Assembly (NCBI RefSeq): GCF_036971445.1 | Contig: NC_091482.1 | Coordinates: 61,752,001-61,816,000, forward strand | Source of the DNA: Narcine bancroftii | Lineage: Eukaryota | Direction: 5' to 3' | Length of the DNA stretch: 64,000 nucleotides | In this document: positions 18,469 through 51,180 of the stretch, piece by piece | How the letters are laid out: the number at the start of each line of letters is the position of its first letter | How positions within the stretch are numbered: position 1 is the stretch's first letter | Notes under the pieces: model-generated | Seen by the model: the letters and a program-made list of their open reading frames with translations, nothing else | Told to the model about the DNA's origin: nothing | Database searches by the model: none | Position numbers and translations under genes: made by a program

Positions 18469-18668
18469 TTCTCTCTGGTTGGGAAATCCATTGGAGCTGA
18501 TCATCATCCTGTAATATTGAACCGAAGCCTTAGGATATCTCCTCTTGTGCATGGTTTTAAAATCAATGTAGTAAAGGCCAAATCTTTCTGAATATCCTTC
18601 GTCCCATTCAAAATTATCCAGCAATGACCAGGAAGTGTAACCCTTCACTTTAACTCCATCTTTAACAG
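18469..18668 (-). CDS. LCTL: LCTL exon 11
   Basis: (A)VKDGVKVKGYTSWSLLDNFEWDEGYSERFGLYYIDFKTMHKRRYPKASVQYYRMMISSNGFPNQRE; ttacag| ... GAA|gtgagt. Confidence 0.96.
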
Positions 18669-19049
18669 CTGTAAGGTTTCAAAATTAAACATGTTTACAA
18701 AAAAAAATCATTTGACATCACACCAAGAGATGCTGGAAACTTGTAGCGATTTCAAGAGGACTTGTGCTCAATGCACAAGCAGCATTGTTTCAGAAGAAAA
18801 AGTCATGCCAAGAAACAGTGTATTTCTAGTTTACTGTTTGTTTGATATTGAAATAACTTGATTTTTTTCAAAAGTTCTGTTAGCGTTGATCATTCCTGAT
18901 CTCTCAATTGCAGCGATGAGCTGTTTATTTAATAATTAGAAAAAGTCGCTATGCCTCCTACTGTGGCATCATATCTCTGCCTATTGTTTAAAAAAAAATC
19001 AGTTCCCTCTCGCTCTCTCTATAATGAAAGATGTAATATCAAAACCCCA

Positions 19050-19800
19050 GAGACAATTAATAGGTTTGAATATCAATTTATGAAATCATGTTTGCCTAAC
19101 CTACAGGAGTTCTTTGAGGATATGATTAGTAGAAGAGATAGGGGAAACTGATGGATGTCGTGTTTTTTCTTAGATTTTCTGAAGGCTTTTGATAAGATAC
19201 CACAGAGGAGGTTGCTCAACAAGATTGGACCATATGGAATTGGGACAATGTCATGGACTGGGCTGATAATTGGTTAACAGAGCAAAGACAAAGTTGGCAA
19301 GAGTGTCTCGTGAGGTTATGCAGGGATCAATGTTTGTGCCCAGTTGTTCATAATTTCTCAGTGATTTGGCTAAGTAGGAAAGACGAAATGAAGCTTCAAG
19401 GGAATAATGACAGGTGAGTGGATGACAACAAGGCAAAGCAATGACTAAGACCTTGATGAAACTGCAGTTGGATTATAGATAACATTTCTGGCCTCCTTCC
19501 ATTAGAAAGGATCAACTTGCCATTGAAGAGAACTGCAAAGAATTACTAGACAAATTCCTGGTACAACAGGTTTATATGAGATGAGAGTTTTAGTAATAGA
19601 CCTGTATTCTCTAATCTTTTACAAGATTAAGAAGTGATCTCATTAAAACGCATCAGATTCCCTTGAGGTCTGACAGCTAATACAGGATGGTCTAGAAAAG
19701 CCTCACCCTGTAGACTATTTACGACACAGATGAAGAGAACCCTCAAAGACATTGGTGAATCAGGAATTCTCAACCATGGAGGTTTCTGGAGGCTCCATCA
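19050..19800 (+). mobile_element. Old CR1-type LINE fragment
   Basis: KSCLPNLQEFFED and GATTTTCTGAAGGCTTTTGATAAGATACC (DFxKAFDKIP) RT motifs. Confidence 0.7.
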
Positions 19801-20644
19801 TCAGCACTCCTTGTATTCAGAGAGTCTCTGCACCCTTTCCAGCTTAATGATATCTTTTCGATAGCTGACCAAAAGTATGCACAATAGTTATGTGTGATCT
19901 CACCAACATCCAGATGAAGGATTTTGGCATGAAGCATCATCAATTATTTTTCTCCCACTGATGCTGCTCGACCTAAGTTCCACCAGCAGATTGTTGCTCC
20001 TGTACTCAGTGTCCTGACCGAAGAAGGTATTTGGCACATTTGCCTTCATCACCACTTGCATAGAACTCAGTACCTATATCCCAAGTCTTTTTGTCCTGTC
20101 CAGATGTAAACATGTTTTGTAATTAACACTCTTTGAAGCTGCAAGATGTACTGAGGACACAGGGGTAGCTGTTCAAGGCACAGTGGTGAGATTTAGTAGC
20201 AGCTATCTACTCATTTATTCTGACAGGGGAGCAATTTGGCCTATCAAGTCCCTGCTGACTCCGAGCAGAACAATCCCTTGACTCCCATTTCAACCCCCAC
20301 ACACCCCCCCCCCTTCTCTGTATCCTTGCAACTTTCTCTCCCCTCTCCTTTTTTTTTGTCAATTCATCGATTAGTGAGTGTATGGATTTTGAGGGGAAAA
20401 TGAACCCCCTGAAGTTGTCACAGGAAAAACATGCAAATTCCATGTAGACGGCCCTGTCAGAAGTGGACCCAGGTTGCTCAAGGTGTGAGGGAGTAGCACT
20501 AACTGCTCCACAGCCGCACCCTCTAATCTTTAGAACATCAAAACTAATTTAAAAGGAAATTCTTCCTGCTTTCTCATTTTTTGTTCACTCCCAGGGCAAT
20601 TGTTGTTACATGGAAAAAGCCTCATTTTGATATGAAGAAACCAC

Positions 20645-20771
20645 CTTTCAGAATCTCGTTAACATAATTATTCATGTACTGCATTCGCCACTTGTCGCAG
20701 AGCTCTGGACATTGCCATTTTTCCGATACTCCATTTTCGGTTATGTAGATTCTCGGGTCTCCATATCGACT
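20645..20771 (-). CDS. LCTL: LCTL exon 10 (ITENG nucleophile motif)
   Basis: SRYGDPRIYITENGVSEKWQCPELCDKWRMQYMNNYVNEILK; tttcag| ... G|gtggtt. Confidence 0.95.
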
Positions 20772-23151
20772 CTGAAACAAATCAGAAAGCAACAGCATGG
20801 CAAATTAAAATTTCAGTCACTCAAATTCATCTTAATATAGAGGATAGTTTCTGATAGGTTAGCACAACAAGAGTTTGTACGATGGGATTTTCTGCCATCT
20901 TGTTAAAAAAATTGAAAAGACTCAGGTGTCAAAAGTCTGCTTGGAAACATGGGAGAATTATTACTCAACACAAGGGGACATTATTCAGTAGTAAGTGATA
21001 ACCTTCAATCTTCCTGATTACTCTGCAATCATGTAAATACATTTTGTTATATGTAGTCATTGTAAATGTAATATTTTTGTTTCAAAACCTCTCATCTTCC
21101 TTGCCAACATACATCAGGAAGTAATGACAAGTCCTCAGTTGCTCAAGCCTTCCCTTGTACATTTTGTGAAAAAAAATTTAGCAAAAGATGATCCCCTTGC
21201 ACTCTTTTATAAATGTACATCTCTATGGCCAGGATTATATAACTGCTGTAGCACTACTCCCTATACTGTTGTCTTAGTTATTTCCTTGTTATTTATGCTC
21301 TACCGGCTGTATGTATGATAATAAAGCCGTTCATTTTTTTGGGGGTTGGAAGCAAGTGATCATTCTCTCCCAAATTCACATTGTATAAATTTGACATTAC
21401 AAACTGGATTACTTATTGAAACATCCAAGCCTCGACCTCATTGGAACAGACCAAGCATCTAGACAGGTATCCCATGTCACAAAATCTTAGGCCTTGAAAT
21501 TTGCAAAGTATTGCAGAATTTATGGAGAGAAGACTACACCTGGTGATGTGTTTTAAGGTGTACCCAAACTGGCTGTTGAGATTGCTTTTTAAAACAGAGC
21601 ATGACATGGAGCAGAAGATACCTGATTAGAAATGAATCATTTCAGCTGGAGTTGATCCCTCACCTGGTGTATTATTTTAAATGTGTTTGGTGATATGTAA
21701 TGAGACAAAAAGTCAGGCTTTTCACATATATTAAGCTATTTATGAGATCAACCTTTGATTCTTTTTCAGATGTCCTGGTAGCAGGAGTTTACATCTCCCC
21801 TTCACCTCAAATTCATGATATTAACAAAAATTAAGTGTTGACTTTCCTTTTAGAAGTTTGTTTTCTTTGCTATCTTATTTGTTTATTTAATGTTTACCTT
21901 AATAAAGATATTTTTCTGGGTTTTTTTTGTGATTTGTAAATGATGCTTGGCATTATTTTCCATCTTTCAAAGCTTCAGTAACAAACCTGTTCCTGAGTCC
22001 GCATTAAATGAGACCCAGTATAATGGAAAAATAGCAAGTTGATGTGGCTTCTTCAGCACCATGTCCCAATCCTGTGATCTTTTAAGACCAAAGGATCTTC
22101 GATCTGGTTGGAAGAACTCTGCCATGATCTGTGGAAAGAGAAACCAGTGAACATTTTGGTTTTCAACCCACAATGTTGACTGGTTTCAGCCAGTGCCTGT
22201 TTTTTTTTCTGATGAAAGCCCCAGGCCAAAAATGTTGGTTACCCTTTACTTCTTATGGATGCTGTGCAACCAGCTGAGTTTCTTCAGCACATTTGTGTAA
22301 TCCCCTTGACCCCAGCTTCTGCAGATTCTCTTAACTCCAAACAAGGCTTCTGGAGGAATAGGGATATGGCATTTTATAAAATAAGGACATATTTGTGTTT
22401 TTATTAACTCAGACCAATTCCCTGAAATGGTTTTACAGCTAATTAAATGATTTGTCATGATACAGAAAACTTGACCATCTATTTGCTTGCCCCAAGGTCC
22501 CACATGAAGCAATCTGACCACCAGTGATGCAAGTCAAGAGATGAATATCATCTTGGAAACTGAGAGAAATTCCTTCACTCTATAGTATTGCCCTAGAATT
22601 TTTTGATCTTCCTGATAGCATTCTGGTTTAAAGTCTCAATCAAAGACAAGATCTCTGTTGATGTCTCATTCCCACAACATCACATGGGTCTATTATGTTT
22701 TCAGCTTTGAAGTCACCCCAGCCTATGTGGCTTTGACGAGGACATTACCCACTGAGAGATGACCACACATGTGAAGTTAAGACAACAAAACGAATGGTCA
22801 AGCTTATTTTCTACTTAATGTGGCCCAGTTGGAAGCAGCTAATCGGAGTTAAAAGATTATATGTTTAAGTCTCACTACAGTGCAGCACTAAGAGAGAGAC
22901 ATTAAACCAAAATGCTATCCAAGTCTCTTGGGCAGAAAAAAAGTTATGTGAGACCTGGTCCAGATTTAAATCCCAGTGAAAGAGCAGATCGTGTGTTTAT
23001 TGGACTTTCTGTACACAAATGAATGATTTGAGTAAATATGACTTTGACTTGCAACACTCGAGCAAGTCATGGGTTCATTAAATATTAATCCTTTTTGCAT
23101 TACTCCTAAAGTAACAAATTGATCTATGCATCTCTGATTTGCAGCAAATAC

Positions 23152-23426
23152 CTTTATGAAATTCAGGATTCTCCTGAAGCCCCAGGGTACTGAATAGAGC
23201 CACTCGGATCCTGGGTCTGGCCACTGGGGATCAACGAGCTCCAATAAGTCGCGATCGGTGTGATAACTTGGTCCCTTGCTATGATGGTAATTCTTGTGAG
23301 TGATGTAGCGAGTTGTGAAATGACCCAGCCCAAAAAAGTCTGAAGTGCCTTTGATGAAGTGTTTCTCCTGTGGAGTGAAGGCAGGCAACCTCGAGCCACC
23401 CAGACCTTCCTGTGAACTCTTCCTCC
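23152..23426 (-). CDS. LCTL: LCTL exon 9
   Basis: (G)RKSSQEGLGGSRLPAFTPQEKHFIKGTSDFFGLGHFTTRYI...WLYSVPWGFRRILNFIK; ccacag| ... AAG|gtattt. Confidence 0.96.
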
Positions 23427-24244
23427 CTGTGGATGGAGTAAACACCAGAGTCGGTCAGAGCTGAGGACAAAGGTTTGACAGTTTGAACAATACCACTGAC
23501 TCATGGCCACATTTTGTTCTGGATTTCCTCTGCTGTGAGAATGAATTGGATTATTTCCTCAAAAATTACCTGGATGAGGCTCAATCAAACTCTCCCACAC
23601 ATTGCTAATTTGAAAGAGTAGAAAGGAGTGCAATAGAAGTTGGTGGAAACAACTATGACAGATGAAAAACTGTCCCCTTAGTACCTTGCTGAATATATAA
23701 AAACTTCCATGGAAAGAATTTCTACGCGCTTTTCTGATGCTACATAGGACATTGAATCTTTCCCTTCTGTCCATGATTTTAAGAGGCATTTTACTTCCTA
23801 TGCAAAGTCATTTCATTTGACACACAGGAACAACAACTGTAGGCTTCACAAGTTGCATCCACTGTTCGTGCAGATCATTAAGGTAAATCTCTGCCTCAGC
23901 TGTCCTGTTGTAAAAGGCAAGCTGAAATCAAATGCCATTGACATCCACTTTGGAATGTTCTCTGGGGTCACCTTTCCCATACTGTCTATTAAAATCAGTA
24001 ATGAGCTGAAGAAACTAAAACTGTAAAATTGTCCCATTTCACACAACGTTAAAAAACAAAATGCATCATTTGCCTGGTGGCATTTTAGACTTCTAAATTA
24101 TGGAAAAACTCAGAATTATGAATATCTGTTTCTGGGCAGATCAATTTACTCTGGGCTTTGTGTTTGTCATGCCAGGTTAAAAAGTGAAAGAGTGTGACTG
24201 TGTGAGCACCATTACTTTATTTTCACCTATTATTTTACACTTAC

Positions 24245-24406
24245 CAATGCAGTCTTTCATAACTTGAGGGTAGTCCCCATTAAAAATGGGGTTAGCAAAC
24301 CATCCGAGGTTAAATTGGATGTAGCGCTCCCCAGCATCAATATCCTTCCGGCTTGTGATGTCAACTGGCTCTCCCCACTCACTTGTGATGGAAATACCCA
24401 CCATGC
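24245..24406 (-). CDS. LCTL: LCTL exon 8
   Basis: (G)MVGISITSEWGEPVDITSRKDIDAGERYIQFNLGWFANPIFNGDYPQVMKDCI; attaaag| ... G|gtaagt. Confidence 0.95.
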
Positions 24407-25578
24407 CTTTAATATTAAAAGAATGTTTAATAATTACCACACAAGTAGACTTAGAATTGGAACAAAAATGTTTCAGTTGTGATTTTTTTAATTGCAATGG
24501 TTCCTGACCTGAAGCATTTCCACAAGATGCTCAGCATCCATTAGTCCAAGATCCCCTGGCTTTACATTTAAAGCATCCGATCTGAAGCCCCCTGTCCTGG
24601 CCATTTGCTTCTTGTTTCTCAATATGCTCATTCATTGCTCAAATTTGATGTTTTATTTCCTAAATTCTTCTGACAGTTTTCATTGATTCATTTTTGTGAT
24701 CTGACTGTAGCTGGCAAGGCCAGGGTTTATTATCCAACTCTGTTTGCCTTTGAGAAAATGGGGTTGAGCTACCATCTCGAACTGTTCTAGCCCTTGTGAG
24801 TGTGTTCCCATGGTATTATTGGAGAGGTAGTTCCAGGATTTAGAACCCATGAAATGGGTGAATAATGTAAAGATGTGAAAGATGAGATTGTGAACTTGCA
24901 TCCGATGTTTCTTGCTGTCAAATAGAAGAACTTGCATTGCAGCTTGGTAACAGAAACTGCTCTGCTCAAGACTGCAGAGAATTCTGAACACAGCTCAGGT
25001 TGTTGCGCAAACCAATCTCCCTAGACACCGTCTATACCTCCTGCTGTCTCCGGAAAGCTGCCAATATATTTAAAAAAACCAACCCAGCCCAGTTACACTC
25101 TCTTCTCCCCCTACTGTCAGACAGAAGAAGCACGAGCTTAAATGGTAAAAGATGAGACACTCGTGCAGTTTTAGTTGCACTTTTCTCTACACCCTGCACT
25201 TTGTTATACATTTTCTCTGCACGCTTCGATATTATAATGTTTTTACAATAATATTGTATTATTGAACTACCTGGTGTACTTGAGCACTGGTTGACTTGTA
25301 TGGATGGCATGCTTTAAAAAAAATTACAATACATGTCAGTATGTATGATATACGGAAATATGTGCTGAGATCAGGACTAACAGATCTTCCTGAAGGCTTT
25401 AATAAAAGTACTTCAGTCAGGATATTGAATCTCATAAATGCCACTTGAAAATGTTGAACCTTCGCTTAAGTTCATACAGCAAAAGGTAGGTAACTTATGC
25501 AGCACACTTGGTTATAGTTTACTCCTGTGCTGTACGTTTGTATTGTGTTTGAGACTTCTTAATTTTGAGAAGCAGTAC

Positions 25579-25633
25579 CTTTTTGGCGGCTGCGCCAGAG
25601 TCTGTCATACGTATGCCAAGCTGTTGCATGGGC
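25579..25633 (-). CDS. LCTL: LCTL exon 7
   Basis: AHATAWHTYDRLWRSRQK; tttcacag| ... G|gtactg. Confidence 0.94.
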
Positions 25634-27002
25634 CTGTGAAACAGAAGTCAACACCCACAGCGTTATTAAGATCAAGGGTTCATTACATTTTTCTCCCTCA
25701 CAATCATGTTTACAGTTTGTACCCACCATAATTATCAGAAAATTAATTATTATCATTGCTCCAAAAACACACTTCAGAGGATCTGAGTGAAAGCTTCATT
25801 CAGTGGTGACACTTGCCTTGGTTTGTGGCCCATGGGTTGAAGCCATATTGTAGCAATGGGCTTGACTGATGTTTTGATGGAATTCTGAGGTAGTGTTGCC
25901 CTGCCACAGGTCCCAGGAACCAGAATCATATACTCCTCACACCCTGGCCTCAACCACAGCCAAAACAGACTAGTTTCTGATATCCATTGTCCTTTGTTTT
26001 CATGTGAATTGAAAGGATGATAATTGTGATGTATTTCATTGGCTCTGCTACACAAGGATCTCTTCAGATCAGGAAAGGTGCTGTGTAAAACATTGAGAAT
26101 CCAACACAAGATTGCCCAGGAATCCTATTGGTTTGGCATCTACTTCAGGACACAAAGGTGCTGGAGGAACTCAGCAGGTCAGGCAACATCCATGCATAAC
26201 AACAGGGAGTTGAAGTTGGGGCCTGAGACCTTCTTCAGGTATGCCGAAAATCAGGTAGATATCCCAAATCTTATTCGGGCAAGGCTTCGGAGTACAGGCT
26301 AGCAAGTGATGGGTGGAAACTAAGAGAAAGGAGGTGATAGTGGGAGAGGCATAGGGTTGAGAATGAGGTCTCTAATAGAAGGGAAGAAGCCGTGGAGCCA
26401 GAGGGACAGCAGAACTGGGGAGGGGAGTTGCCGGGAATTGATGCCATCTGATTTGACATTACAAGGTGTTCCTCCAATTTATGCCATTGGTTTGTATGGG
26501 TGCTGACTGGCCTGCTGAGTTCCTCCAGGATCACGTGTGGTACTAATTTTCCAGCAACTGCAGACTTAATGTTTACCTGGTTTGGCATCTAACTCGCTCG
26601 GTTCTCCCTTTAAACTCACCAGGGCTCCATTCCTGATACTGATGAAAGTTTATTGACATGTATAAAGTACAATGTACAGTTGCACCAAAATTCTTACAAT
26701 GCAGCCAGCTACACTAATGACAATAGTATAAATTAAATTACCACAATATGCCAAGACAGAAAAACAGATAATATTCACATTCCCACTCTATTACCACCCT
26801 CCCATTAAACAGCTGATTAACAAAAAAATTATACCATAGTGTAACATCAAAATTGAATTATAGGTTGTTTGTTATATTAAAAGGAATAACATCCAGTAGT
26901 CCAGAAAATCTGCCAGTTCACCACCACTAGTTTTAAATACCAAATCAGAATTTACTGATCTTTTATTTCAGTGACAAATGATTTTTTGATAGATCAACTT
27001 AC

Positions 27003-27098
27003 CTTAATAATGTTATGGGCTGCCCTGTAAGCTCCAATTCCTTTCAGCTTTAACCCTGGTGCATGATGTCCCATCTCATATCCCTCTACAGCTATAGA
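27003..27098 (-). CDS. LCTL: LCTL exon 6
   Basis: SIAVEGYEMGHHAPGLKLKGIGAYRAAHNIIK; ttgtag| ... AAG|gtaagt. Confidence 0.96.
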
Positions 27099-28384
27099 CT
27101 ACAATATCAAATACATAAATATCAGTTCAAGACAGTTCACATATTTCACATTTATTTCATTGTCATCTGAAGGTCCTAAGGAGTGGGAATCCCACAGATG
27201 AGCTGCAGATATTCAATCCATCTCTGTCTTTTCCTAAATAGGGACCTGTGGTCAATTGAAGCAAGCAGCAAATGGCCCTTAGGGGCAAAGTGATAGAGGT
27301 CTGGAAGAATGAGAGTGGAGTGGAAGCAAAAACAGCATTTTGATGTATACTTAGGCAGGTAACCAAATGCTGGGAATCTGCAATTAGGCTGGTGATTCTT
27401 TACTGACCACAGATATGATGGGCTGAATGGCCTTTGACATCACCATTTTTCTTGAGAAACAGTAGATTAATGTTAAAATAACTTGGAAATTATCTTAAAA
27501 AAGTGCTCATTAGATTTTAGGTGTTGTACCCTGTTGGGAGCAGATCAACCCTAAACCTGAGGTCTCTTGTTCAGGATGATGCTGTTGGCTCCATTTTTGT
27601 TGGGTTTTTTTTATATATATAATTTCTTACACATGATCTCAGTTATTATATTAAACACAAAGCAATAAAAGGTTATGCGTGTGAGATAGGGAAAAATTAG
27701 ATTATGGTGGAGAAGGTCGGCACAACATTGTAGGCTGAAGGGCCTATACTGTGCTGTAATGTTCTATGGAAACATCAGAGAATGTAGTATTAGACTGGCT
27801 TCAATCATAAACATTTGGAAAGTGAAGCTTGAAAAAAATTGATCAAGATTGAAGTGAGAAGAGGAGATAGCAAAGATAAACAAAGAGGGAGAATGAGTCC
27901 CAATCCACAATATTGACTATTTATCTCCATGGATGCTGCCTGACTCAGAGTTTTTCCAGCTTCTCTGTTCACTGTGATAAACTGCTCTTAATCAGGTTTG
28001 TGGCACTGAAATGTGCTTGCTGCCCTGGGGAGCCTGTTCTTCCTGATTTTACAGTTGTGTTTGGATATGCATGATAAACTCATGAGGAACTACATTTTAC
28101 AAAGAAACTTCAACATGGAAGCAAGCTTTTCAATCTGTGCACATCCAAAGGACTGTTTCTTACTAGTATTTTAGTTTTTAAAGTTTGTCAGTTGTGTTTG
28201 TTTTAACTTGAAAACAAGAAACTTTAAGTCCAAAGACCTTTGTAGGAGAGAACTGTTAGATATGTTCATGGTTCATTTATCACAGCAGCTCCAAGAAATG
28301 ACATTAACACGCCAGTGAGATGCGTGCGGGAACTGAAATGTTATTGTAAAGTGCAAAAGTAAATATCCATAACACAAAACATAC

Positions 28385-28513
28385 CCAGGGGTTGTTGAAA
28401 GTTATCCAATGCTTTACTCTGTCACCAAATTTCTCAAAACACAGGTTGGCATAATCATTAAAGAAGTTAACCAGACTGCTGTTCTGCCAGCCACCATATC
28501 TATCTTGGAGGAC
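28385..28513 (-). CDS. LCTL: LCTL exon 5
   Basis: [43 protein letters not shown]; ttttag| ... TGG|gtatgt. Confidence 0.96.
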
Positions 28514-29334
28514 CTAAAATGATAAAGCGTTTTAAAGAGATAAATACAGAATGAAATACACCTATGACTGTGCAGTGAAGCAAAATTCAAATGCCATTTA
28601 CAAATTTGCTGATACCATAGTTGTCAGCAGAATCACAAATAGCAATGAGAAAGTGTACATGAATGAGCTAGGTCAGCTGGTCACCCAACTTTGCACTCAA
28701 CATTAGCAAAACTAAGGAACTGATTGTGAATTTCAGGAGGGGGAAACCAGGAGAACACAAACTAGTCCTCATCGAGGGGTTAGCAGTGGAAAGAACTTCA
28801 AATTCCTGGGTGTCAACATCCCTGAAGATCTATCCTGGGGCCTCTGTGTCGATGCAATCATGTAGAAGGCTCATCAGTAGCTATACTTTTTGTGGAGAGT
28901 TGGTATGTTACCAAAGGCTCTTGCAAATTTCTACAGGTGTACCATGGATAACATTCTGACAGGTTGCATCACTCTCGTATGAAGGTGCACAAGACAGGAA
29001 AAGACTACAAAGAGTTGTGAATTTGCCATCAAGGGCACCAGCCTTAACTTTATTAAGAACATCTACAAGAGGCAATGTCTCAAGACAGCAGCCTCCATCC
29101 TCTAGGACCCTCACATGCCCTCTTCTCACTGCTACCATTAGGAAGGAGGTACAAGAGCCTGAAGACGAACAACCAGTGGTACAAAAACAGCTTCTTCCCC
29201 TCCACCATCAGATTTCTGAATGAACAATGAATCATGACACTACCTCACTTTCTCTTCTTTTGCACTAACTATTTTTTTTTTAAATGTAATAGGAACTTTT
29301 GCACCTGTAACCAAAATAATGAATTTTGTGACAT

Positions 29335-29337
<3 letters not shown>

Positions 29338-29379
<42 letters not shown>

Positions 29380-31778
29380 CACACCATAAATCACATTAGC
29401 CATGATATACACAATTTCTTTTTCACACATATACAGTGACTTTTTCTCCCCCCCCCCTTTCCTCCCAAACCACCCCCCCACCCCCCCTCTCATCCATTTT
29501 AGGTATACAATCTAGGTTGCATTAATCCAGTCAGACAATGTTGTCATTCAACAAAATTACACCAGAAATTCTACTGAGTCCATTCTTTTCTTTCCTTCTC
29601 CTTCCATCAACTTAGGTAATGTTTGTCCCCGGTAGGTTTTCGCTATTGTATTTAATGTAAGGCTCCTATACTTGTTCGAATATTTCAATATTATTTCTTA
29701 ACCAATATGTTATTTTTTCTAATGGAATACATTTATTCATTTAAATTTGGTAGTTTATTCCTTTTAATTTGGTTATGTATTCCATTAATATTTAAAGACA
29801 TATAGTTCAGCGTAGCCCTTTTATATTTTGTTTATCTTCTCTTTCCGTTTTTCCATCATTACCTTTCCTCCTTTTCCATTTCTGTTTTCTTATTTTCAAC
29901 TCTTTATAAGACAACATTCCTACAACATCCAACATTTTCCTTATTCTCCTATTTCTATCTTATTTATTCCCAATCTCCCATTCACCTCCTGAGTTGTCCT
30001 TTATCCCTTGTCGGACAACCACATCTCCCCTCTCCATTTGGATTTGCGAATCCACTCGCAAGCGTCAACTGATTTTGCAGTGACCGCTATTTCCCCCCAC
30101 CCCGCCTCCCCCAGAAAAGATTTCACTTTTCATATGTCACAAAGGTCACTCTTTTAATTCCCTCCTTATTCTCTCTATTTCATTACCTTCCCTTATTAAT
30201 TCTTGTCTATACTATCTATATTTTCCTCTAAGTACAGATACATTCACGTATGCTCCTTGTCTCTATTCACTCTTATACCTCTTTACCCGCATACATATCA
30301 ATCGTGATCATTTTTACTCTCATTACCCGTCTTCATCCCTCAGTCTATTTTTGTCTTTACCCACATACATATCAATTGTGATCATCTTAACTCTCATTAC
30401 CCGTCTTCCTCCCTCAGTCTATTTTTGTAATTGTTCTGCAAATTTTCGTGCTTCTTCTGGATCCGAGAATAGTCTGTTTTGTTGTCCTGGAATAAATATT
30501 TTCAATACCGCTGGATGCTTTAGTATAAATTTATACCCTTTCTTCCATAAAATCGCCTTTGCTGTATTGAACTCTTTTCTCTTCTTTAGGAGTTCAAAAC
30601 TTATATCTGGATAAATGAAGATTTTTTGCCCTTTATACTCCAGTGGTTTGTTGCCCTCTCTTACTTTTTCCATTGTCTTCTCCAGTACCTTTTCTCTTGT
30701 AGTATATCTTAGGAATTTTACTACAATAGATCTTGGTTTTTGTTGTGGTTGTGGTTTAGAGGCCAATACTCTATGTGCCCTTTCTATTTCCAATTCTTGC
30801 TGTAGTTCTGGACATCCTAGGGTCTTAGGGATCCACTCTTTTATAAACTCCCTCATATTCTTGCCTTCTTCATCTTCCTTAAGGCCCACTATCTTTATGT
30901 TATTTCTTCTGTTATGGTTTTCCATTGTATCTATTTTTTGAGCTAGTAGTTCTTGTGTCTCTTTAGTTTTTTTATTAGATTTCTCCAATTTCTTTTTTAA
31001 GTCTTCTACCTCCATTTCTGCTGCTACTGCCCGCTCTTCCATCTTGTCCATTTTCTTTCCCATTTCTGTTAAGGTCATCTCCATTTTATTTATTTTCTCT
31101 TCTGTGTTGTTTATTCTTTTTCTTAAATCCTTAAATTCCTGTGTTTGCCATTCTTTAAATGATTCCATGTATCCTCTAATAAGAGCAAGTATATCCTTTA
31201 CCTTGCCTCTCTTTTCTTCTTCTATTTCACCATACTCTTCCTCTTCTTCTTCCTCTGGGTTGGCCATCTGTTGTTTCTTTGTTGCCCTTTCCTCCTCTTC
31301 TTTCTTGTTTCTGTTGTCTTCTGTGGTCTCTTCTTGCTGCAGGTGTTCTGCAGCTGTCGTTGCCGGCTGTGGAGATCGACTCCCCAGCTGGTCCCCCCTC
31401 CCGTCGGTGTGTTTTTTTTCATTCGCATCGCGCATGCGCGAAACTTCGCGCATGCGCGGTTGCGCACTTTTACTCGGCTCTGCGAGCCATTTTTGTAGTC
31501 CATTATTTACCGACCTGAGGGAGCGGGTTTCTCTCTCCGCAGCGGGCCTCTTCGGACAGGTAAGGCCTTCACCTTTTTCCTCCTTTGTCTTCTCTTCCTC
31601 TCTTCTTACCGTTGCTTTCGACTTTTCTTTTTTTGTCGCCATCTTCTTTCCACCTTTATACTCACTTTTCTGTAACTTTTATTTCTGTGCCTTTGTGTTT
31701 TCTCTTGTTTTTCCCGACTTTTCTGGAGAGGGCTGGAGTTCACCGTCCGGCCACTACTCCATCGCGTGACTCCTCCCC
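29338..31778 (-). mobile_element. L1-clade non-LTR retrotransposon with both ends and intact ORF1 but almost all ORF2 deleted (HAL1-like, non-autonomous)
   Basis: Duplicated AATTTTGTGACATGTT at 29322-29337 and 31779-31794 (last TT overlaps the tail). T44 tract at 29336-29379; 5' end GGGGAGGAGTCACGCGATGG; ORF1 30419-31642; ORF2 stubs 29742-29819 and 29612-29740. Confidence 0.93.
30419..31642 (-). CDS. L1-type ORF1p (Transposase_22/L1TD1-like: coiled coil, RRM, CTD), 407 aa
   Basis: Heptad coiled coil followed by ENHNRRNNIKIVGLKE, IERAHR, PRSIVVKFLRY, IFIYPDIS, KRKEF and HPAVLKIF, all hallmark L1 ORF1p motifs. Alternative start at Met126 (31267). Confidence 0.92.
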   Translation of the reverse strand: MATKKEKSKATVRREEEKTKEEKGEGLTCPKRPAAERETRSLRSVNNGLQKWLAEPSKSAQPRMREVSRMRDANEKKHTDGRGDQLGSRSPQPATTAAEHLQQEETTEDNRNKKEEEERATKKQQMANPEEEEEEEYGEIEEEKRGKVKDILALIRGYMESFKEWQTQEFKDLRKRINNTEEKINKMEMTLTEMGKKMDKMEERAVAAEMEVEDLKKKLEKSNKKTKETQELLAQKIDTMENHNRRNNIKIVGLKEDEEGKNMREFIKEWIPKTLGCPELQQELEIERAHRVLASKPQPQQKPRSIVVKFLRYTTREKVLEKTMEKVREGNKPLEYKGQKIFIYPDISFELLKKRKEFNTAKAILWKKGYKFILKHPAVLKIFIPGQQNRLFSDPEEARKFAEQLQK

Positions 31779-31866
31779 AATTTTGTGACATGTTCATGAC
31801 AATAAATTCTGATCCTTCTTCTGCACTTGCTTTATCATTACAGTCTCTTTCCAGTGCCCTCTAGAA

Positions 31867-32246
31867 CAGTGGTTTTCAAACCACTCCCCAATTCACATTC
31901 CACCTTAAGCAATCCCAATGCCATAAATGCTCTGTGATTAGTAAGGGATTGCCTAAGGTGGTATGTGAGTGGAAAGAAAAAGGTTTGAAAAACTACTGTT
32001 TTAATCGTACCTAATTGACTCGTTATGTGCATGGTTTCATAACTCCAAAGGAATGGCCAATGACAATTTTTCTCAACCAAAGTATTTCAGTAACAATTGG
32101 GTCTGGAGTAGTGGTTCTCAATCTTCCCTTCCCTTCCCTTCCCACTCACAGACCACCTTAAGCCCCTTACCAATCACAGAGCACTTATGGCATAGGAATT
32201 GCCTAAGGTGGAATGTGAGTGTAGGGGGGCAGTTTGAGGACCTCTG
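31867..32246. mobile_element. hAT-Charlie-type MITE with long inverted arms
   Basis: Ends CAGTGGTTTTCAAAC and GTTTGAGGACCTCTG; 8-bp flanks CTCTAGAA/CTTTAGAG; related pieces near 45415-45476 and 53292-53416. Confidence 0.75.
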
Positions 32247-33373
32247 CTTTAGAGCTAATTAATTTGTTTCAACCTAACCAGGAAATCCATCCAGATCAAT
32301 TGGTATCTACAGGCAGATCATGGCTCTGTATTTATATTAATAAGGCCAGAATGCTGAAGAGTAAAGACAGTCTGTGTCCTGCATCCCCAGAATTGGACCA
32401 AAGTTGGAAGAAAACCCAAATTGTACAGCTGTGAAGAGAGACGATCAAAGACCAAGTTGAACCCAGCTCTTTCCTGATCCCCTTCCCATCAATGATGTTT
32501 GACAAGACTGTGAAATTCTCAAGACACTAACACATCGATGCCCAAAAAAGTTTAATCTCCAAAGTCTCTGTAAATACTCAAAGGTATTGAGTTAAAAACA
32601 TTAGAAGAGTATTTTATCTATCCAAAAAAAGTGATCATAATCCAAATCTGGGGAGGGGCCTGTTCATGTGTCATTTCAGCAATTTCAATAAACCACTGAC
32701 GCAAAAACACTGCAGTAAAGGAGAGAGCAGATGGTGGGAACATGTCAAATTTTGTATTTCCCATCCAAAATCTAATTGTAAATTACCTATTGGAATTGAG
32801 GGTAGCCACGGAGAATGTAGTTCAAGTGTGACTTTGATACATGAGAAATGGCAATTAAAGGTTAAAGAGACTTCTCAGTCAGGAGGTCTCTGCATCTGCA
32901 CCATTCCACCCTTACAGATGCCCTTCTTGGAAAAGATTGCAATTATTTAAGGTTTAATGTCAAGAAGAATTAGACAGGGTTTCTCGTGATTCTTTGGAAA
33001 AAGAACAGCCCCTCTTGCTCAAATGAAATCTGACCCTGGGTGAGGCATAGGACATGGAATATGGATGTTACTCCCAAAGTCAGCATTTATTGTCCTTTCC
33101 TGACTCGGGTTAATGTGGAGCCAAGCACATCAGTGGGTCTAGAGTAACATACTAGGCATGGAGAAGTGGATGCAGTCATTCCTCTGTGAGGGCAGTTAGT
33201 AAGTAATGTTCAAAGAGATTTTGGGAAAATTGGAATATAAAAGCAATATAAAATCCTTCAAATTTAAAAGGTTTGTCTGCACTCAGGGAAAAATAGGATG
33301 GGATTTATTTGTTCTCACACATTGCAGGCAGGTTTATTGCCTTTGAGAAGATGATGTGGGAAATCTTGAATCA

Positions 33374-33589
<216 letters not shown>

Positions 33590-34227
33590 TCATTTAAAAA
33601 GAGAGTATTTCTTGTTCTACACTGCTCTAACCTTCCTAGTCTGTGCTCCTTTCTTTGTATCCTTGGACCTCCTTTCATAACTATATAGACAGTGGTGCAA
33701 TATTAATAAAACTAAACTGCTGAATGGGGCAGCAGCGCTGGAGATTTGGTAGGGGTGGGGAGGAAGGGCTGAGAGTGTCATTGCTCAGTGAGGATTTTTA
33801 ATATTCAGGTAGTACTTCAGCATCAGTGAGATTGGGGGTATACAGCGGTTACCCGACCCCACACAGTGCAGTAGGTTTGGATACAGGGCTGGCAGAAGTC
33901 AGAATGCCAGGCCAGTTCTTCACACCTGGGCTGTCGCAGCTGTTGGGCAAGCACACAGTCTCTGCCTCTTGCCCTAAAGGATTCTGAATGGAGAGTGAAC
34001 TTATAATTATATGACAGATTAAAATCCTCAACTCCTACCACTTTCACCCTGATTAACACCCTTACACTCTCTGCCAACAATACACCACTCCATGGGTACT
34101 AAAGTGCAAGTCGGGACTATGCTACGGGGAGGGATTCTGCTCACTTCCGACAACATTAATATTAGCATGTTGGCCTTAAGAGAAGGCAGATGCCCTTCCA
34201 GCAGATAAGCAAAGTGAGTGGTGCTAC

Positions 34228-34315
34228 CTTTTATCCCCGTGGGGATGACTCGAGGCCAGGAAAGAGAAAAACGATAATGATCGACCTTCAGTTCCTTTAG
34301 CAAGGCAATGTCCTC
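34228..34315 (-). CDS. LCTL: LCTL exon 3
   Basis: EDIALLKELKVDHYRFSLSWPRVIPTGIK; ttgcag| ... G|gtagca. Confidence 0.96.
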
Positions 34316-34649
34316 CTGCAATAAACCCAAGTGTTAACCAGGCATTATATGCATGAGAATTATCAGTATTAATTGACTTGGAAAATCATTTCATTAAAAA
34401 GCCAGGTAGCGTGAGCAAGTATCTTCACCAATAAGGCATGTTACTGGAGGATAATTACAGACAGATTTTGTGCTTAAATTCAGATTCATTTTCTGAATTT
34501 GACTGACAGTGGCCGATTCAATCAAATCCATTACGTCTTGGAATAGCATTTAACCATAATCACACCTCAAACATTCTATTGTCTATAAAATGCCTCAAGA
34601 TGTTCTGAAAAGCTCTGTGTGAATACCAGATTCTGATACATGCCCTTAC

Positions 34650-34810
34650 CTTGAATTTATAATAGCTTTCACATGATGAATCCCCGGTTTCATTCAGGAA
34701 TACTTTTCCTTTTTTATGCGTGAAAGCATCCCAGATGCTGAGTCCTTTCCCATCTTGATTCCAAGCCCCTTCAGTCTGATAAGCTGAACTGCCCACACCC
34801 CAGGAGAAAC
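34650..34810 (-). CDS. LCTL: LCTL exon 2
   Basis: (G)[53 protein letters not shown]; gtttcag| ... AAG|gtaagg. Confidence 0.96.
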
Positions 34811-36528
34811 CTGAAACCGATACAGTACAGTACCCCGTTAGCCAGAATTCAATCAACCTGAAACTCAAACTACCGGCAAAAAACACTGAGGCAACAAACA
34901 AATAAATTAAAATAAATAAGACTGAGTAGATGGACCCTGTGGGGGATCACTTAGACCTCGTTGGACATGCGCAAGTTTGCCCCGCTGAACTGGCAATGCC
35001 CCCTCAATGTGCGCGCTTTCTTTTCGCTGTCGCCACTTGCTTGGCAGTGCTTTAGGTGTATTAGTCAGGCTTTATCTGTAAACTTGGATGGGGGGGGGGG
35101 TTTAATTATGACAACGGAATGGTTAGTGTAGCAGCAAGTGCAACTGTTACAGCGCTAGGACTGTGGTTCGAATTTAAATTTTGTAAATTACAGGAATTGC
35201 CCAATTAAAGTACATATTCAAAGACTATAATAATGACATTTTTTTCAAATTAATTTACATTTGGCACTGTCTTTTGTCTTTTAAATGGTGTTTTCTTAAT
35301 ACAGGTGTATTAGGCATTGGAAGAGTGAGCCTCAGTCCACCGGAAAATTCATAAATCCCAACAGCCGCGATCCCTGCAAGTGCATGATAATGGGGATTCT
35401 AAGGTATTTAACATTCATTACATTTTTCCTTGAGAATACGCCAACTTGCTTGAAAGTAATATTATCTAATATTTCTTAAGTTTATCTTTCTTTATAACAC
35501 AGGAGACTGTCTTTTAGCCCCTTGAATGAATATTGACGATTAGAACAGTCCTATCATTCCCATTCCTTCACTGATCTCCTGCACATACCTGTCAACATGC
35601 AGATTCTCCTGCCTCCTACCTACATCTGGAGGAAAATCACATGGCCACAGGGAGAAACTTGGAACTGGAGCCAAGGTCAGGCTCAAACCCAGGTCATTAG
35701 TGATGAGGCAACAGCTGTACCTGCCACCCAAAAGTGCTGCCCATACACATTCCAGCACAGAAGTACTGCTTGACACCACTCTGAAGTAATTTTGGAAATT
35801 ATTTGTGGCTGGTTTCATCAGTGATAAGAAACTAACAAACCATTCAGGAACCGCAGCTAGATAGGCCCATTCACCAGCACATCCCAGGCAGAGCACAGAT
35901 GTTACAAAAAAGCAGAGAGGACAAATTTTCAGGCACTGAATTGGGTTTTAGGAGCCTCTAAAGAGGAGAAAGTGTCCAGACAGATGAAAGCACAGCCTCC
36001 ATTCCTACAGTGATGGCTGTAAAGCTGTGAGTGTTGGGGGAACTTGGGTATCTCAGAGGGGTGGAGGACCAGAAGAGGTTACATGGATAGCGGAGTGTCA
36101 CAGGCAAGGGGAACAGACACAAAATCCCTAGAGGAATTTGTAAACAAGGATGGGAATTATACCATCAAGATCTTACTTAGCCTGATGCCAATGTAGCTTC
36201 CACAAACAGCCCCGGGAGTGGAATGAGAGAGGATTCAAATGCAAATCAGATACATTTCTGGTATGAAATAACATCCGAAAGGATGTGTGCAGTGTGCTAG
36301 AGGGGAGCAGATAAGATTGGACCTGATATTTCCAAAGGGCTGTACTCAGTCAATTAGTCTATATTCAATGGAGCACATAGGAATAATAGGGGTTTCATAG
36401 ACTACTCAGGGAGAAATCGTCAGTATGGATACAGAGGCTATGGAATCCTGAATTAGGAATCACAGGTTAAGATGCAAGATCAACTACTTGGGAAGTGTTT
36501 TTTTTTTAATTTACAGTAGTGGCTGCTC

Positions 36529-36656
36529 AGTTATTTGAGGCTGAGATTGGTCCATTTTGGGGGTTATAACAAACTGAGGAACATTGGAATAAAGTTATTT
36601 GAGGCTGAGATTGGTCCATTTTAGGGGCTATAACAAATTGAGGAACATTGGAATAA
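36529..36656 (+). repeat. Tandem duplication, 2 x 64 bp
   Basis: AGTTATTTGAGGCTGAGATTGGTCCATTTT...GAGGAACATTGGAATAA occurs twice with 3 substitutions. Confidence 0.9.
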
Positions 36657-37388
36657 AGCAGGAAAGTTAATATTAAAGTTGAATGATTTGATGGGAACGG
36701 CGAGGAGGCTCAAGGCACTCGGTCATTGCTGAGAGCTGTCTATCATTGGAGCTTTATTCATCTCTTGCCCGGATCTGTTGTGAACTCATTAGTCAATGAC
36801 CACTGAGAATGGTGCAAGATGAACCAGACAGGTCCTGTAATTATAGCAACATCCTAAGGCCTTTTCAATATTGGTTAGAAAATTAAACCTTTATCAAATT
36901 AAGATTGTGAATATACTTTTCATAAAGTTTTCCCCTGAATTTTGACGGTAAACATGCATGCTGTACATTACAGGGACCACCATCCTTCAGTACTGACAAC
37001 TCCAAATGATGCACAAAAACCCAGCATCTGGTGTCAGACGCTTCCTTTTCTAAACTTGTAAGATTTTGGAAAATGTCAAAGGGCTCAGTTTATTCTGATA
37101 AACTGTCGAACCAATAAACTTTGAATAATGAGAAAATTCCAAAACTGAGAAGTACCAGCATTAATGTGTAGGGCAGGGAGGGAGCAATTCTTGGTTATTC
37201 TTAAATGCGTCATGAAGTGTTGGGTCATTGACCAGAAGAGGACATTCTAAAAAGACAGACTTGTTCTGAGTGCAAAACTCATCACTTAATCACATAGCAT
37301 CTTTCAAAACAGCATCTGAAAAGTATTAACTAATTTAGTATATATTGCACCATTTCAGAACTCTGTTCAGTTCCCTGAACATCCTTAC

Positions 37389-41744: not shown

Positions 41745-42082
41745 CGTCATCATCGAGGAATCCTTCCACCCCACACACAGCATTTTTCAGCTGTTCCCAT
41801 CAGGAAAGAGATTCAGGAGGATCAAAGCCAGCACCACCAGGTTGAGGAACAGCTTCTTCTCACGAGCTGTGAGAATGCTGAACGTCCAAAGAAACTGTTC
41901 AGGTTAACCATCTATAGCTCTCATATTCACAAAACAATACTTATGTTTATTTAAATATATAAATACTTGTCCTGTATGAGTGTTATGTCTGGTCGTGTGT
42001 CTGTGTGTTTTACACAGAGGATCAGTGAACACTGTTTCATCGGGTTGTATTTGTGCAATCAGATGACAATAAACTTGATTTA
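41745..42082 (+). mobile_element. Rex1/Babar-type LINE 3' fragment
   Basis: Same 3' end as 10250-10560 and, inverted, 4545-4930; GACAATAAACTTGATT tail. Confidence 0.7.
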
Positions 42083-44523
42083 ACTTCCATTTTACACCCA
42101 ATCACAGATGGCACCCATTCGGTTTTCTCCTCCTTTCTCAGCATCTTACATTAAAGATCAAACAAATGTTAAATGTTGTCAACTTTGTTCCTCTCTCCAT
42201 AGCTTCTGCCGAATTTCTACAAATTGGTTTTTATTTTTGACTACTTGAATTATTTTTTTTCTAGCCCAAGTACATCAGTCTGTCATAGTGAAGCAAGTGT
42301 TATAAAACTGCAGTCACTTCACAATGATTGGAGCAAAACATTGGGTGACCATCCTGACCCATTCTGGTCACCTGCAATCCCCTCAGGTGGGATCGATTCA
42401 GAGAATGGGAATCAAATCGAAAGTGGCCCTTGAATCCAAAGGACAAGTCATTTAACAAGAGTAAAGACAATGCCTCCAATCAATTACTCTCTTTTGGGAT
42501 GGTGATGGCTTTCACACTGAACACATTGCTTCTATCTCTGTGACATTATATTTGCATGTTTAAGCTAACAAGCCTGGGTAATGCATCAAGGTACAATTAC
42601 ACTGATGGAAATGACTGTGTGGCATCCACGTGTCACAAAAGCTCATAACAGTTCACAATATTTTAATAGCTATGATTGATGATCTGCAATAATCAGGACC
42701 ATTTTCACAAACACCAGCACATTTATTAAAACAAGAAACAAGAAACCATGAAACAACTTAACTTACGAATGATGTCACACTCACTCTCTCTCCATAACCT
42801 CCCTCACTCGAGGGTGTTCAAAGCTTTGCCTGCTTAATCCTTGATGCTGGAGTGAACAGCTTGGTTTTTCCAACCCCAAAGAGGTCACAAAATACATTCA
42901 ACAGCAGTCTGTGATTTAAACAAGTCCAGTATTTTTGCATGATTCCTTTGTGCCATTCCTCTTTACTCCATTCCTTTTCTAGTTCTGGATACTGAAGGAC
43001 ATTCCCACCTACCTCTTTTTATGCTCCCCATCTGTCATGTTTCAGACTAATCAGTCAGTTTTAAATCAAACCCAAGTGGAAAGCAAAGGAGCACAGAGTT
43101 AATTCTAAATGGAAAGGCCTTCACTAGCCAGGTCACTGGGCTCTTTAGAATGCACACTATTCAATTCTAGATGTTAATTCTTACAATTAATAAAAAATGA
43201 TTTTCATAGTTTTAAATACCAACCAAATCATCAAGGTCTCATAACAAGAGTCCAAACTTGCTTACTGCTTCCTTTTGTATAAACATGTCAATTTTGGTGT
43301 CATTAACATTAAATACCTACATGCTTAAGTTTACCATGGGGTCCGTGTTTACCTACATTTTTAACCAAAACTGTTTTCATAAACTGAAATTACAGTTCCC
43401 TGCCTGTGGAGTTCCTGCACCAGTATCAATGCCAGTATTGTGGCGACATGTTTACACAAGAATTTGTAATAAGATTGGAAACAAGAATTTATCATTTGAA
43501 AATAGTACCCAAAATACATTTGCACTCCCCTCCCCCCAAACCAATGGCCCAATAACACTTTACCCTCTGAACTGACTTGATAAAGAACTTGAGTGTGTAG
43601 CCAGAGGATTGCCATTAGTTCACATGCTTCTCAGGAAAAAAAAACAATGACATGGAAAAACGGAGGGCATGATTGGAGCTTGCAGAGAGGTGAGGCTCCA
43701 AATGAAAACTCATGAAAGAACTGCAAGGTGTTGTTGTACACCACACTAAATGCAAGAGCAATCTTGGATGGTCCCAAGCACTTTACTGGGAGGGGGAAGA
43801 CAGTTAAAGATGGTCGAGAGGTTGACTGAAAAAAACACTGGCTAACATCTAGAATAAAAGTGCAAAAAACCACTCAACATCAAGACAAAATTCATGAAAG
43901 GATCTCACTCCTTGGGAGAATAGCAACTTGACCTGATTCTTGGAAACCACTTTTAGGAGTGGAACATTATTTCAGAGGGCACCTTTGTGGAGGTCAATAG
44001 TATTTCAGTACTTTTTTTTTTTCTCCACAGGCTTTTTATTTATAAACTACTGCAATAGTGGTTAGGCACGATTGGAGATCCTAAAGTGATGCACAGAATC
44101 AATACAAGATCTTGAGGCCAAGGACAGACACTGCATTCTACGAAAATAATCCAGATATCCAGCTGAGTTTGTGGCTTATTGTTCCAAAACCTCAGCACCA
44201 ACATTCCAGAAAAATTCAGAATTGTGAAATTCCATATCTCATTTCTTGTTTCCACACTTCTGATTTCATTTTCTCAACTCCCAAGGATCTCCGTTTTTTC
44301 TCCCAACAACACCTTTATTCTGCATGAAGGTCATTCCCATCCCCACTGGAGCTTTCTTTTCTCAGTTTCGATCAATGAAATGCAGCATGAAGACAAACCT
44401 CTCAAGTTTCAAATTCCATGCAAAGTTTCAAAGGTTGATGTCTGTCCTGCCCCATTGAATTGAGCCGTCCACTTGAAAAAAAAAATTGGTTCTCTTTTGC
44501 AGTCTTGGCACAAAATGATCCAT

Positions 44524-50923: not shown

Positions 50924-51180
50924 TGAGTTTTGTGTGCCCGATGGAGATGTGGGGGGGCTGGTAGTCATGGTGGGGAGCTGGCTGATGGAGGATCTCAGTT
51001 TTCTTCAGGCTAACTTCCAGGCCAAACATTTTGGCAGTTTCCGCAAAGCAGGACGTCAAGCGCTGAAGAGCTGGCTCTGAATGGGCAACTAAAGCGGCAT
51101 CATCTGCAAAGAGTAGTTCACGGACAAGTTTCTCTTGTGTCTTGGTGTGAGCTTGCAGGCGCCTCAGATTGAAGAGACTG
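50924..51180 (-). mobile_element. Internal fragment of an RTE-clade LINE reverse transcriptase
   Basis: Open frame SLFNLRRLQAHTKTQEKLVRELLFADDAALVAHSEPALQRLTSCFAETAKMFGLEVSLKKTE, including the FADD motif. Confidence 0.85.

What the first reader, a model, noticed from the sequence alone, without database searches (positions are those of the whole stretch)
29322..31794. Recently mobile ORF1-only L1 derivative (HAL1-like) that still shows the scar of its ORF2 deletion
Seen in sequence: a 2.44-kb element between identical 16-bp direct repeats, with an uninterrupted 44-nt poly(A), a complete 5' end and a stop-free 407-aa ORF1. Where a multi-kb ORF2 should be, 26 codons of the APE endonuclease N-terminus (ATLNYMSLNINGIHNQIKRNKLPNL, 29819-29742) are fused out of frame to the ORF2 C-terminus (MNKCIPLEKITYWLRNNIEIFEQV*EPYIKY, 29740-29612). 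That C-terminal stub resembles PLEKITYNL...WNPY in the separate L1 fragment at 11871-12173. The stubs look decayed: AGG sits where the ATG is expected (29817-29819) and TAG where the W is expected (29666-29668). Established: HAL1 ('half-L1') elements encode only ORF1 and are mobilised in trans by L1 ORF2p. Inference: stub decay next to a perfect TSD, pure tail and intact ORF1 means the deletion predates this insertion. That points to a replicating non-autonomous family that keeps its own ORF1p and borrows ORF2p, possibly an independent chondrichthyan origin of the HAL1 strategy.
Basis: partly seen in the sequence, partly recalled or inferred. Interest (0 to 1): 0.85.

Follow-up and report, generated by a model that had tools for sequence, protein, structure and literature searches.

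The report
Half-LINE-1 jumping gene in a ray
A young copy of a LINE-1 jumping gene, probably from an electric ray, kept its RNA-packaging gene but lost almost all of its copying enzyme, so it most likely spreads by borrowing that enzyme, as mammalian 'half-L1' elements do; whether it has sister copies is still untested.

Summary
Observation confirmed, with small corrections. A 2,441-bp minus-strand L1 lies between exact 16-bp target-site duplications. It has a 136-nt 5' UTR, a 407-aa ORF1 folding like human L1 ORF1p, a 599-nt spacer, only 208 nt of ORF2 (endonuclease start joined out of frame to the C-terminus), a 232-nt 3' UTR and a 42-nt A tail. Closest ORF1 relatives are Narcine bancroftii gene models (91%, 89%).

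The insertion looks young and ORF1 differences are mostly conservative (2 of 19 radical, 47% expected), while the ORF2 remnant has a stop at a conserved Trp and probably a lost ATG. This favours a deletion older than the insertion: a HAL1-like, ORF1-only element moved in trans (0.72). The decisive test, the same junction at other loci, could not be run, and no parent ORF2 was found.

New details: an extra A clips the ORF1p tail after its last helix; a 22-bp near-repeat straddles the junction; a 74-bp spacer duplication is 7% diverged.

ORF1-only LINEs are a known kind (HAL1, HeT-A, Ag-Sponge). The new part would be an independent, recently active, non-mammalian L1 case. Interest 0.45.

The parts
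31779..31794 (-). 5' copy of the 16-bp target-site duplication
   Evidence: Exact match to 29322-29337. Site reads TG/AACA, only a partial fit to the TT/AAAA motif.
31643..31778 (-). 5' UTR, 136 nt, starting with a G run; probable internal Pol II promoter (inferred)
   Evidence: Length within the fish L1 range 113-267 nt; start resembles the mammalian consensus 5' end (PMC5381506 passages).
30419..31642 (-). ORF1, 407 aa: disordered N-terminal 140 aa with basic start, 104-residue helix, RRM, C-terminal domain
   Evidence: PDB E 5e-13 to human ORF1p; model; 11 of 11 Foldseek hits at E<=0.001 are human L1 ORF1p; Narcine relatives 91/89/69%.
30419..30426 (-). 5-A run and early stop that clip the ORF1p tail
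   Evidence: Two nearest full-length relatives continue 7 and 3 residues further.
30280..30428 (-). 74-bp tandem duplication over the ORF1 end and spacer start; units differ at 5 of 74 sites, both carry the 5-A run
29820..30418 (-). Inter-ORF spacer, 599 nt, retained
   Evidence: fish L1 mean 536 +/- 132 nt.
29742..29819 (-). ORF2 N-terminal stub (first strand and helix of the APE endonuclease); no ATG at the expected start
   Evidence: 8 of 8 PDB hits are L1 endonuclease residues 8-28, best E 0.85; Atlas lead Exo_endo_phos on 13% of one cluster, rank 19 of 30; start-codon candidates.
29728..29771 (-). 22-bp imperfect tandem repeat straddling the deletion junction (frame changes at 29741)
   Evidence: TRF score 69-70; 7 of 2,000 dinucleotide shuffles reach 60 and 2 of 2,000 reach 70.
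29612..29740 (-). ORF2 C-terminal stub, 42 codons, with a stop at 29666-29668
   Evidence: 57% identity, E 3e-4, to unnamed protein P0027; Trp at the stop position in P0027 and in the 11859 fragment. That this motif is the fish L1 ORF2 C-terminus is recalled; PDB and Pfam did not confirm it.
29380..29611 (-). 3' UTR, 232 nt, with G-rich tracts; no AATAAA next to the tail; no stable fold
29338..29379 (-). Pure poly(A) tail, 42 nt
29322..29337 (-). 3' copy of the target-site duplication
28514..33439 (-). Host intron (GT...AG, 4,926 nt; 2,469 nt without the insertion) of a glycoside hydrolase family 1 gene, same orientation as the element

Best explanation
The element is a recent insertion of a non-autonomous, ORF1-only L1 derivative (HAL1-like) in an electric ray genome. 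Step 1 (shown by structure): an ancestral fish-type L1 lost about 3.55 kb of ORF2 in one deletion, keeping 5' UTR, ORF1, spacer, two short ORF2 ends and 3' UTR. Step 2 (inferred): the near-repeat at the junction points to a template slip or homology-guided repair rather than splicing. Step 3 (inferred from stub damage beside a young insertion): the deleted form existed, and its ORF2 remnant decayed, before this copy inserted. Step 4 (inferred from HAL1 and ORF1mneoI work): it is transcribed from its own 5' promoter, makes its own ORF1p, which coats its RNA in cis, and captures ORF2p from a related autonomous L1 in trans through its poly(A) tail and L1 3' end. Step 5 (hallmarks shown): target-primed reverse transcription put a full-length copy, with a 16-bp duplication and A tail, into an intron of a GH1 gene. 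ORF1 is kept because the ORF1p-coated RNA is the efficient trans substrate.
For: Youth: exact duplication, pure 42-nt tail, CpG o/e 0.64 against 0.13 and 0.15 in the flanks; only 3 of 52 windows of 2.4 kb reach 0.5. ORF1 constraint: 2 of 19 private changes are radical against 47% expected for neutral change (p about 0.001); two other Narcine copies show 8 of 18 (Fisher p 0.03); a three-way comparison gave 0 of 13. This caps post-insertion mutation near 0.5% (95% bound 1.5%), at which a stop in the stubs has probability 0.04-0.11, and stop plus start loss 0.0005-0.005. An autonomous source copying itself in cis would have needed both sites intact (inference). Only 3.5% of random deletions would spare 5' UTR and ORF1 and remove at least 90% of ORF2. 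The 74-bp units differ at 5 of 74 sites and both carry the extra A, so this sequence was ageing before it inserted. Precedent: an ORF1-only L1 RNA is mobilised in trans and needs functional ORF1p (PMC11260458); rat HAL1 has about 7,500 copies and arose by ORF2 deletion (PMC2241872).
Against: No second copy of the junction was seen: the window holds none and the host genome was not available. No parent ORF2 was found (2 candidates each, none scoring), so stub divergence cannot be measured and the lost ATG is unproven. With the stop alone the contrast is weak: stubs carry 13% of the stop targets. ORF1 constraint may date from the autonomous ancestor, since the ORF2 status of the compared gene models is unknown. 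The spacer duplication may predate the deletion or come from a switch between two templates. The junction near-repeat fits a one-off slip equally well. There is no AATAAA next to the tail, unlike the L1s surveyed in PMC5381506.
Confidence: 0.72

Rival explanations
1. One-off deletion. A full-length autonomous L1 inserted here in cis, and ORF2 was lost either during that reverse transcription (template jump) or later by genomic repair. The stop and start changes then arose in place.
For: Near-repeat at the junction typical of slippage or templated repair; template switching by ORF2p is described (10.1101/2025.02.02.635956 passages); no second copy seen; only one solid lesion, with 4-11% chance after insertion.
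Against: Needs one or two disabling hits in 208 nt while 1,224 nt of ORF1 took almost none, and needs breakpoints that by chance remove nearly all of ORF2 (3.5%).
Confidence: 0.17
2. Dead-end trans passenger. A single deleted or spliced source produced one or a few daughters in trans, like a processed pseudogene, with no sustained family and no selection on ORF1 after the deletion.
For: Explains stub damage before insertion equally well; L1 proteins mobilise other RNAs in trans, and spliced L1 RNAs do integrate (PMC5860796 passages).
Against: A source old enough to damage its stubs at rest should also have damaged ORF1, which is not seen. Described SpIREs lose 5' UTR or ORF1 sequence, whereas both are whole here. 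A rare event is less likely to be met in one 64-kb window (inference).
Confidence: 0.09
3. Assembly artefact: a full-length L1 was collapsed or mis-joined.
For: L1 copies are repetitive, and a short near-repeat lies at the join. Reads were not available.
Against: Both flanks and the duplication are consistent; no N in the window; the likely source is a chromosome-scale VGP assembly; a collapse would not create the stop codon.
Confidence: 0.02

Closest known systems
HAL1 (half-L1) of mammals, including rat RNHAL1
   Same: L1-derived, encodes ORF1p only, arose by ORF2 deletion, several independent origins, presumed mobilised in trans (PMC5753468, PMC2241872, PMC13756887 passages).
   Different: Host is a ray, not a mammal; parent is a fish-type L1 with short 5' UTR and long spacer; no shared ancestry implied; multi-copy status untested. 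The defining paper (PMC2923044) was not held, so how much ORF2 remnant mammalian HAL1s keep was not checked.
ORF1-present bipartite non-autonomous LINEs (HeT-A, Ag-Sponge; ORF1-only telomeric Jockey elements)
   Same: Both ends and ORF1 kept, ORF2 lost by internal deletion, repeated convergent origin (PMC5786205, PMC13534243 passages).
   Different: Different LINE clades (Jockey, CR1); HeT-A is telomere-targeted, this copy is intronic with a TSD.
ORF1mneoI reporter (engineered human or mouse L1 5' UTR plus ORF1)
   Same: Same logic: own ORF1p in cis, ORF2p in trans; needs functional ORF1p (PMC11260458 passages).
   Different: Engineered and mammalian; the element here is natural and keeps spacer, ORF2 stubs and 3' UTR.
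Autonomous fish-type L1
   Same: 5' UTR 136 nt, spacer 599 nt and 3' UTR 232 nt fall in the fish ranges; ORF1p fold.
   Different: ORF2 is 208 nt instead of about 3,770; ORF1 is longer (1,224 against 780-1,059 nt); no AATAAA before the tail.
SpIRE (spliced integrated retrotransposed element)
   Same: Internally deleted L1 with TSD and poly(A) (PMC5860796 passages).
   Different: The SpIREs in the passages read lose 5' UTR or ORF1 sequence and are dead ends; here these parts are whole and ORF2 is lost.

Membership tests
L1 clade | ORF1p with coiled coil, RRM and C-terminal domain | tested here: met
L1 clade | Target-site duplication and 3' poly(A) | tested here: met
L1 clade | APE endonuclease at the ORF2 N-terminus | tested here: inconclusive
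   8 of 8 PDB hits are L1 endonuclease at the right position but best E is 0.85; no Pfam hit; weak Atlas lead.
L1 clade | TT/AAAA endonuclease site | tested here: inconclusive
   Site reads TG/AACA; the motif is the mammalian one.
L1 clade | AATAAA just before the tail | tested here: not met
   Nearest AATAAA/ATTAAA is at 29656, about 280 nt upstream; feature stated in PMC5381506.
Autonomous L1 | Intact ORF2 (endonuclease and reverse transcriptase) | tested here: not met
   208 nt remain, out of frame.
HAL1-type non-autonomous L1 | Encodes ORF1p but no ORF2p, with both L1 ends | tested here: met
HAL1-type non-autonomous L1 | Derived from L1 by deletion of ORF2 | tested here: met
   Two stubs in the right order and place; parent not recovered.
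HAL1-type non-autonomous L1 | Multi-copy family sharing the deletion, with independent insertion sites | not testable with these tools
   Host genome absent; none in the window; the only open DNA collection scanned is prokaryotic.
HAL1-type non-autonomous L1 | ORF1 under purifying selection after ORF2 loss | tested here: inconclusive
   Constraint is seen on the lineage but cannot be dated against the deletion.
HAL1-type non-autonomous L1 | Mobilised in trans by ORF2p of an autonomous L1 | not testable with these tools
   Needs the partner element and an assay; precedent.
Mammalian HAL1 families (by descent) | Mammalian host and mammalian L1 parent | tested here: not met
   Relatives are from Narcine and Hemitrygon; architecture is fish-type.
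SpIRE | Junction at splice donor and acceptor of the parent | not testable with these tools
   Parent sequence not available.
SpIRE | Loss of 5' UTR or ORF1 sequence | tested here: not met
   Both whole.

The most novel reading that the evidence does not exclude
ORF1-only elements are the dominant young L1 form in the electric ray genome: a long-lived, still active lineage that outnumbers its autonomous driver, has split into ORF1 subfamilies up to 30% apart, and has kept ORF1p under selection since losing ORF2. A hint only: four other Narcine ORF1 gene models were found but no close ORF2 relative (weak searches with short queries).
Probability: 0.2. Interest if true: 0.7.

Novelty: new member of a known kind. 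Interest (0 to 1): 0.45.

Why it matters
If the family is real, the half-L1 strategy has evolved outside mammals from a very different L1 architecture, which argues that escaping cis preference by keeping ORF1p is a general option for L1. Most HAL1s are old. A young family with a visible scar, a traceable parent and probably polymorphic insertions would let one ask directly how such parasites start, whether ORF1p drifts from the parent's after ORF2 loss, and whether they suppress the driver. If it is a single deletion, it is an ordinary damaged L1 copy.

Tried and rejected
Search for the parent ORF2 or for gene models that span the junction: C-stub and ORF2-frame read-through each gave 2 candidates and no scoring hit; only 'longer' proteins were searched and short queries are insensitive, so this is weak. 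The HMMER scan with the C-stub gave 3 hits at E<=0.001; I kept P0027 and dropped P0026 and P0028 as low-complexity repeats. PDB and Pfam did not identify the C-stub, the 11859 fragment or P0027 as ORF2. Cluster look-up could not be made, so accessions and copy counts of the relatives are unknown. No Atlas result exists for the C-stub. The GTDB scan gave 1 locus from 262 pattern matches, a 32-residue match in a stop-rich frame of a bacterial contig, rejected as chance. Rfam: 0 matches in the window. 3' UTR folding is weaker than shuffles (199 of 200 fold as well), so no structured recognition element is claimed. The 11859 fragment was rejected as parent or driver: different family, decayed upstream, no TSD found. 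PMC2923044 was not held. PMC5203782 passages and PMC4161310 passages added nothing on non-mammalian cases. No complex prediction was run, since ORF1p trimerisation is textbook. Repbase, Dfam, viral and metagenome contig collections stayed unchecked; no supplements were read, and TE libraries in supplements could already list this family.

Full report
Observation. The element lies on the minus strand from 31778 to 29338 (2,441 nt) between exact 16-bp repeats found nowhere else in the window. Parts: 5' UTR 136 nt, ORF1 1,224 nt, spacer 599 nt, ORF2 remnant 208 nt, 3' UTR 232 nt, A tail 42 nt. The window has no other copy: BLASTN finds only the element's own internal repeats and matches of 20 nt or less.

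Context and host. The insertion sits, in sense orientation, in an intron (33439-28514) of a glycoside hydrolase family 1 gene and doubles that intron. Of 24 ORF1 relatives found, the best three are Narcine bancroftii gene models (91, 69 and 89% identity), a fourth Narcine model matches the N-terminal third, and a stingray protein follows at 46%. The host is therefore inferred to be Narcine or a close ray. The genome itself was not available.

ORF1. It matches human L1 ORF1p by sequence (E 5e-13) and by fold: a disordered first 140 residues, a 104-residue helix, an RRM and a C-terminal domain, with 11 of 11 Foldseek hits at E<=0.001 being human ORF1p. One blemish: a 5-A run ends the protein 6 residues after its last conserved Phe, against 13 and 9 in the two nearest full-length relatives. 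The cut follows the last predicted helix, and both units of the 74-bp duplication carry the same run while differing at 5 of 74 sites, so the short end looks older than this insertion and tolerated (inference). Private changes are mostly conservative: 2 of 19 radical, after setting aside the frameshifted last residue, against 47% expected under a neutral model (p about 0.001); P0001 and P0003 show 5 of 7 and 3 of 11. For that count P0003 and P0006 were trimmed of non-L1 tails. This shows constraint on the lineage but does not date it.

ORF2 remnant. The N-stub aligns with residues 8-28 of human L1 endonuclease in 8 of 8 PDB hits, but the best E-value is only 0.85. The C-stub matches an unnamed protein at 57% (E 3e-4; 1 kept of 3 hits) and the second L1 fragment in the window (0 of 2,000 shuffles reach the score). 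Both have Trp where this copy has a stop. That this motif is the C-terminus of fish L1 ORF2 is my recall; PDB and Pfam did not confirm it. Against a fish ORF2 of 3,773 +/- 71 nt (PMC5381506 passages) about 3.55 kb is missing. The junction lies within a 22-bp imperfect tandem repeat that 7 of 2,000 shuffles approach (score 60 or more) and 2 exceed. This suggests slippage or templated repair, blurs the breakpoint, and means the last N-stub codons should not be counted as decay. No parent ORF2 was recovered.

Did the deletion precede the insertion? The insertion is young: exact duplication, pure tail, CpG o/e 0.64 against 0.13 and 0.15 in the flanks. ORF1 caps post-insertion mutation near 0.5% (95% bound 1.5%). 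At those rates a stop in the stubs has probability 0.04-0.11, and stop plus start loss 0.0005-0.005. The start loss is inferred: AGG is one of three codons one change from ATG and has the best context. A random deletion would spare 5' UTR and ORF1 and remove 90% of ORF2 in 3.5% of cases. Together these favour an older deletion and trans mobilisation, without proving a family. These are rough models with assumed mutation weights.

Mechanism. Most likely the element is transcribed from its own 5' promoter, makes ORF1p that binds its RNA in cis, and captures ORF2p from an autonomous relative. An engineered ORF1-only L1 RNA behaves this way and needs functional ORF1p (PMC11260458 passages). Rat HAL1 arose by ORF2 deletion and has about 7,500 copies (PMC2241872 passage). 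Shown here: anatomy, insertion hallmarks, ORF1p fold. Inferred: promoter activity, expression, trans capture, family status. Confidence 0.72; one-off deletion 0.17; dead-end passenger 0.09; artefact 0.02.

Comparison and novelty. HAL1 is defined as an ORF1-only L1 derivative with several independent mammalian origins (PMC5753468 and PMC13756887 passages). PMC5786205 groups it with HeT-A and Ag-Sponge (passages), and ORF2 loss is repeated in Drosophila telomeric elements (PMC13534243 passages). The element works like a HAL1 and meets the structural definition; the family criterion is untested, and it is not a mammalian HAL1 by descent. I saw no report of a non-mammalian L1 case in the listings of eight searches (30 of 32 listed; 17: 15 of 1,457,179; 25: 28 of 30; 36: 25 of 89; 37: 25 of 349; 43: 30 of 56; 53: 30 of 164; 68: 15 of 30). 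These were listings, not full texts; the defining HAL1 paper was not held, Repbase and Dfam were not checked, and no supplements were read. Other papers seen as passages only: PMC4161310, PMC5203782, 10.1101/2025.02.02.635956, PMC5860796, 10.1101/2025.02.26.637739; PMC5940361 was seen only as a search listing.

Verdict. A real, well-formed, young ORF1-only L1 derivative; probably a member of a new, independently arisen HAL1-like family in an electric ray. New member of a known kind, interest 0.45; one BLASTN of the junction against the host genome would settle it.

Noticed in passing
window 11859-12173 (+), decayed sequence upstream to about 11700: 3' end of ORF2 from a second, unrelated L1 family; 104 open codons, no clear tail or TSD.
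   Followed up: partly
window 31429-31458: Perfect 14-bp inverted repeat inside ORF1, CpG-rich, resembling an NRF1-type palindrome (motif recalled); the coded stretch is shorter in the 69% relative P0002.
   Followed up: no
window 29338-31778 (-): Ten AATAAA/ATTAAA sites in the sense direction of the host intron could cause early polyadenylation of the GH1 gene.
   Followed up: no
window about 18500-34950 (-): Multi-exon glycoside hydrolase family 1 gene, lactase-like by recall.
   Followed up: partly
window 57078-58754 (-): 558-codon ORF with N-terminal ankyrin repeats, ANKRD34-like by recall.
   Followed up: no
window 4545-5308, 9860-10554, 41749-42085: Three old copies of another repeat, 65-72% identical, probably CR1/L2-type LINE remains (recalled).
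   Followed up: no
window 31859-31985, 32138-32254, 53296-53435: Short palindromic repeat family, MITE-like, one pair just upstream of the element.
   Followed up: no
window 48000-51600 and 60000-63600: Two CpG-rich regions outside the element, likely promoters or young repeats.
   Followed up: no
window 36529-36658: 64-bp tandem duplication, 95% identical.
   Followed up: no
P0001-P0004, P0006: RefSeq ray gene models named FAM122B, GrpE-like and tRNA-specific adenosine deaminase 1 isoforms are largely exonised L1 ORF1, so those labels mislead. P0001 has Tyr at a conserved Asp.
   Followed up: partly
P0027: This unnamed 163-aa protein seems to join the end of an RT domain directly to the ORF2 C-terminus (motifs recalled), so it may itself come from a spliced or deleted L1.
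   Followed up: no
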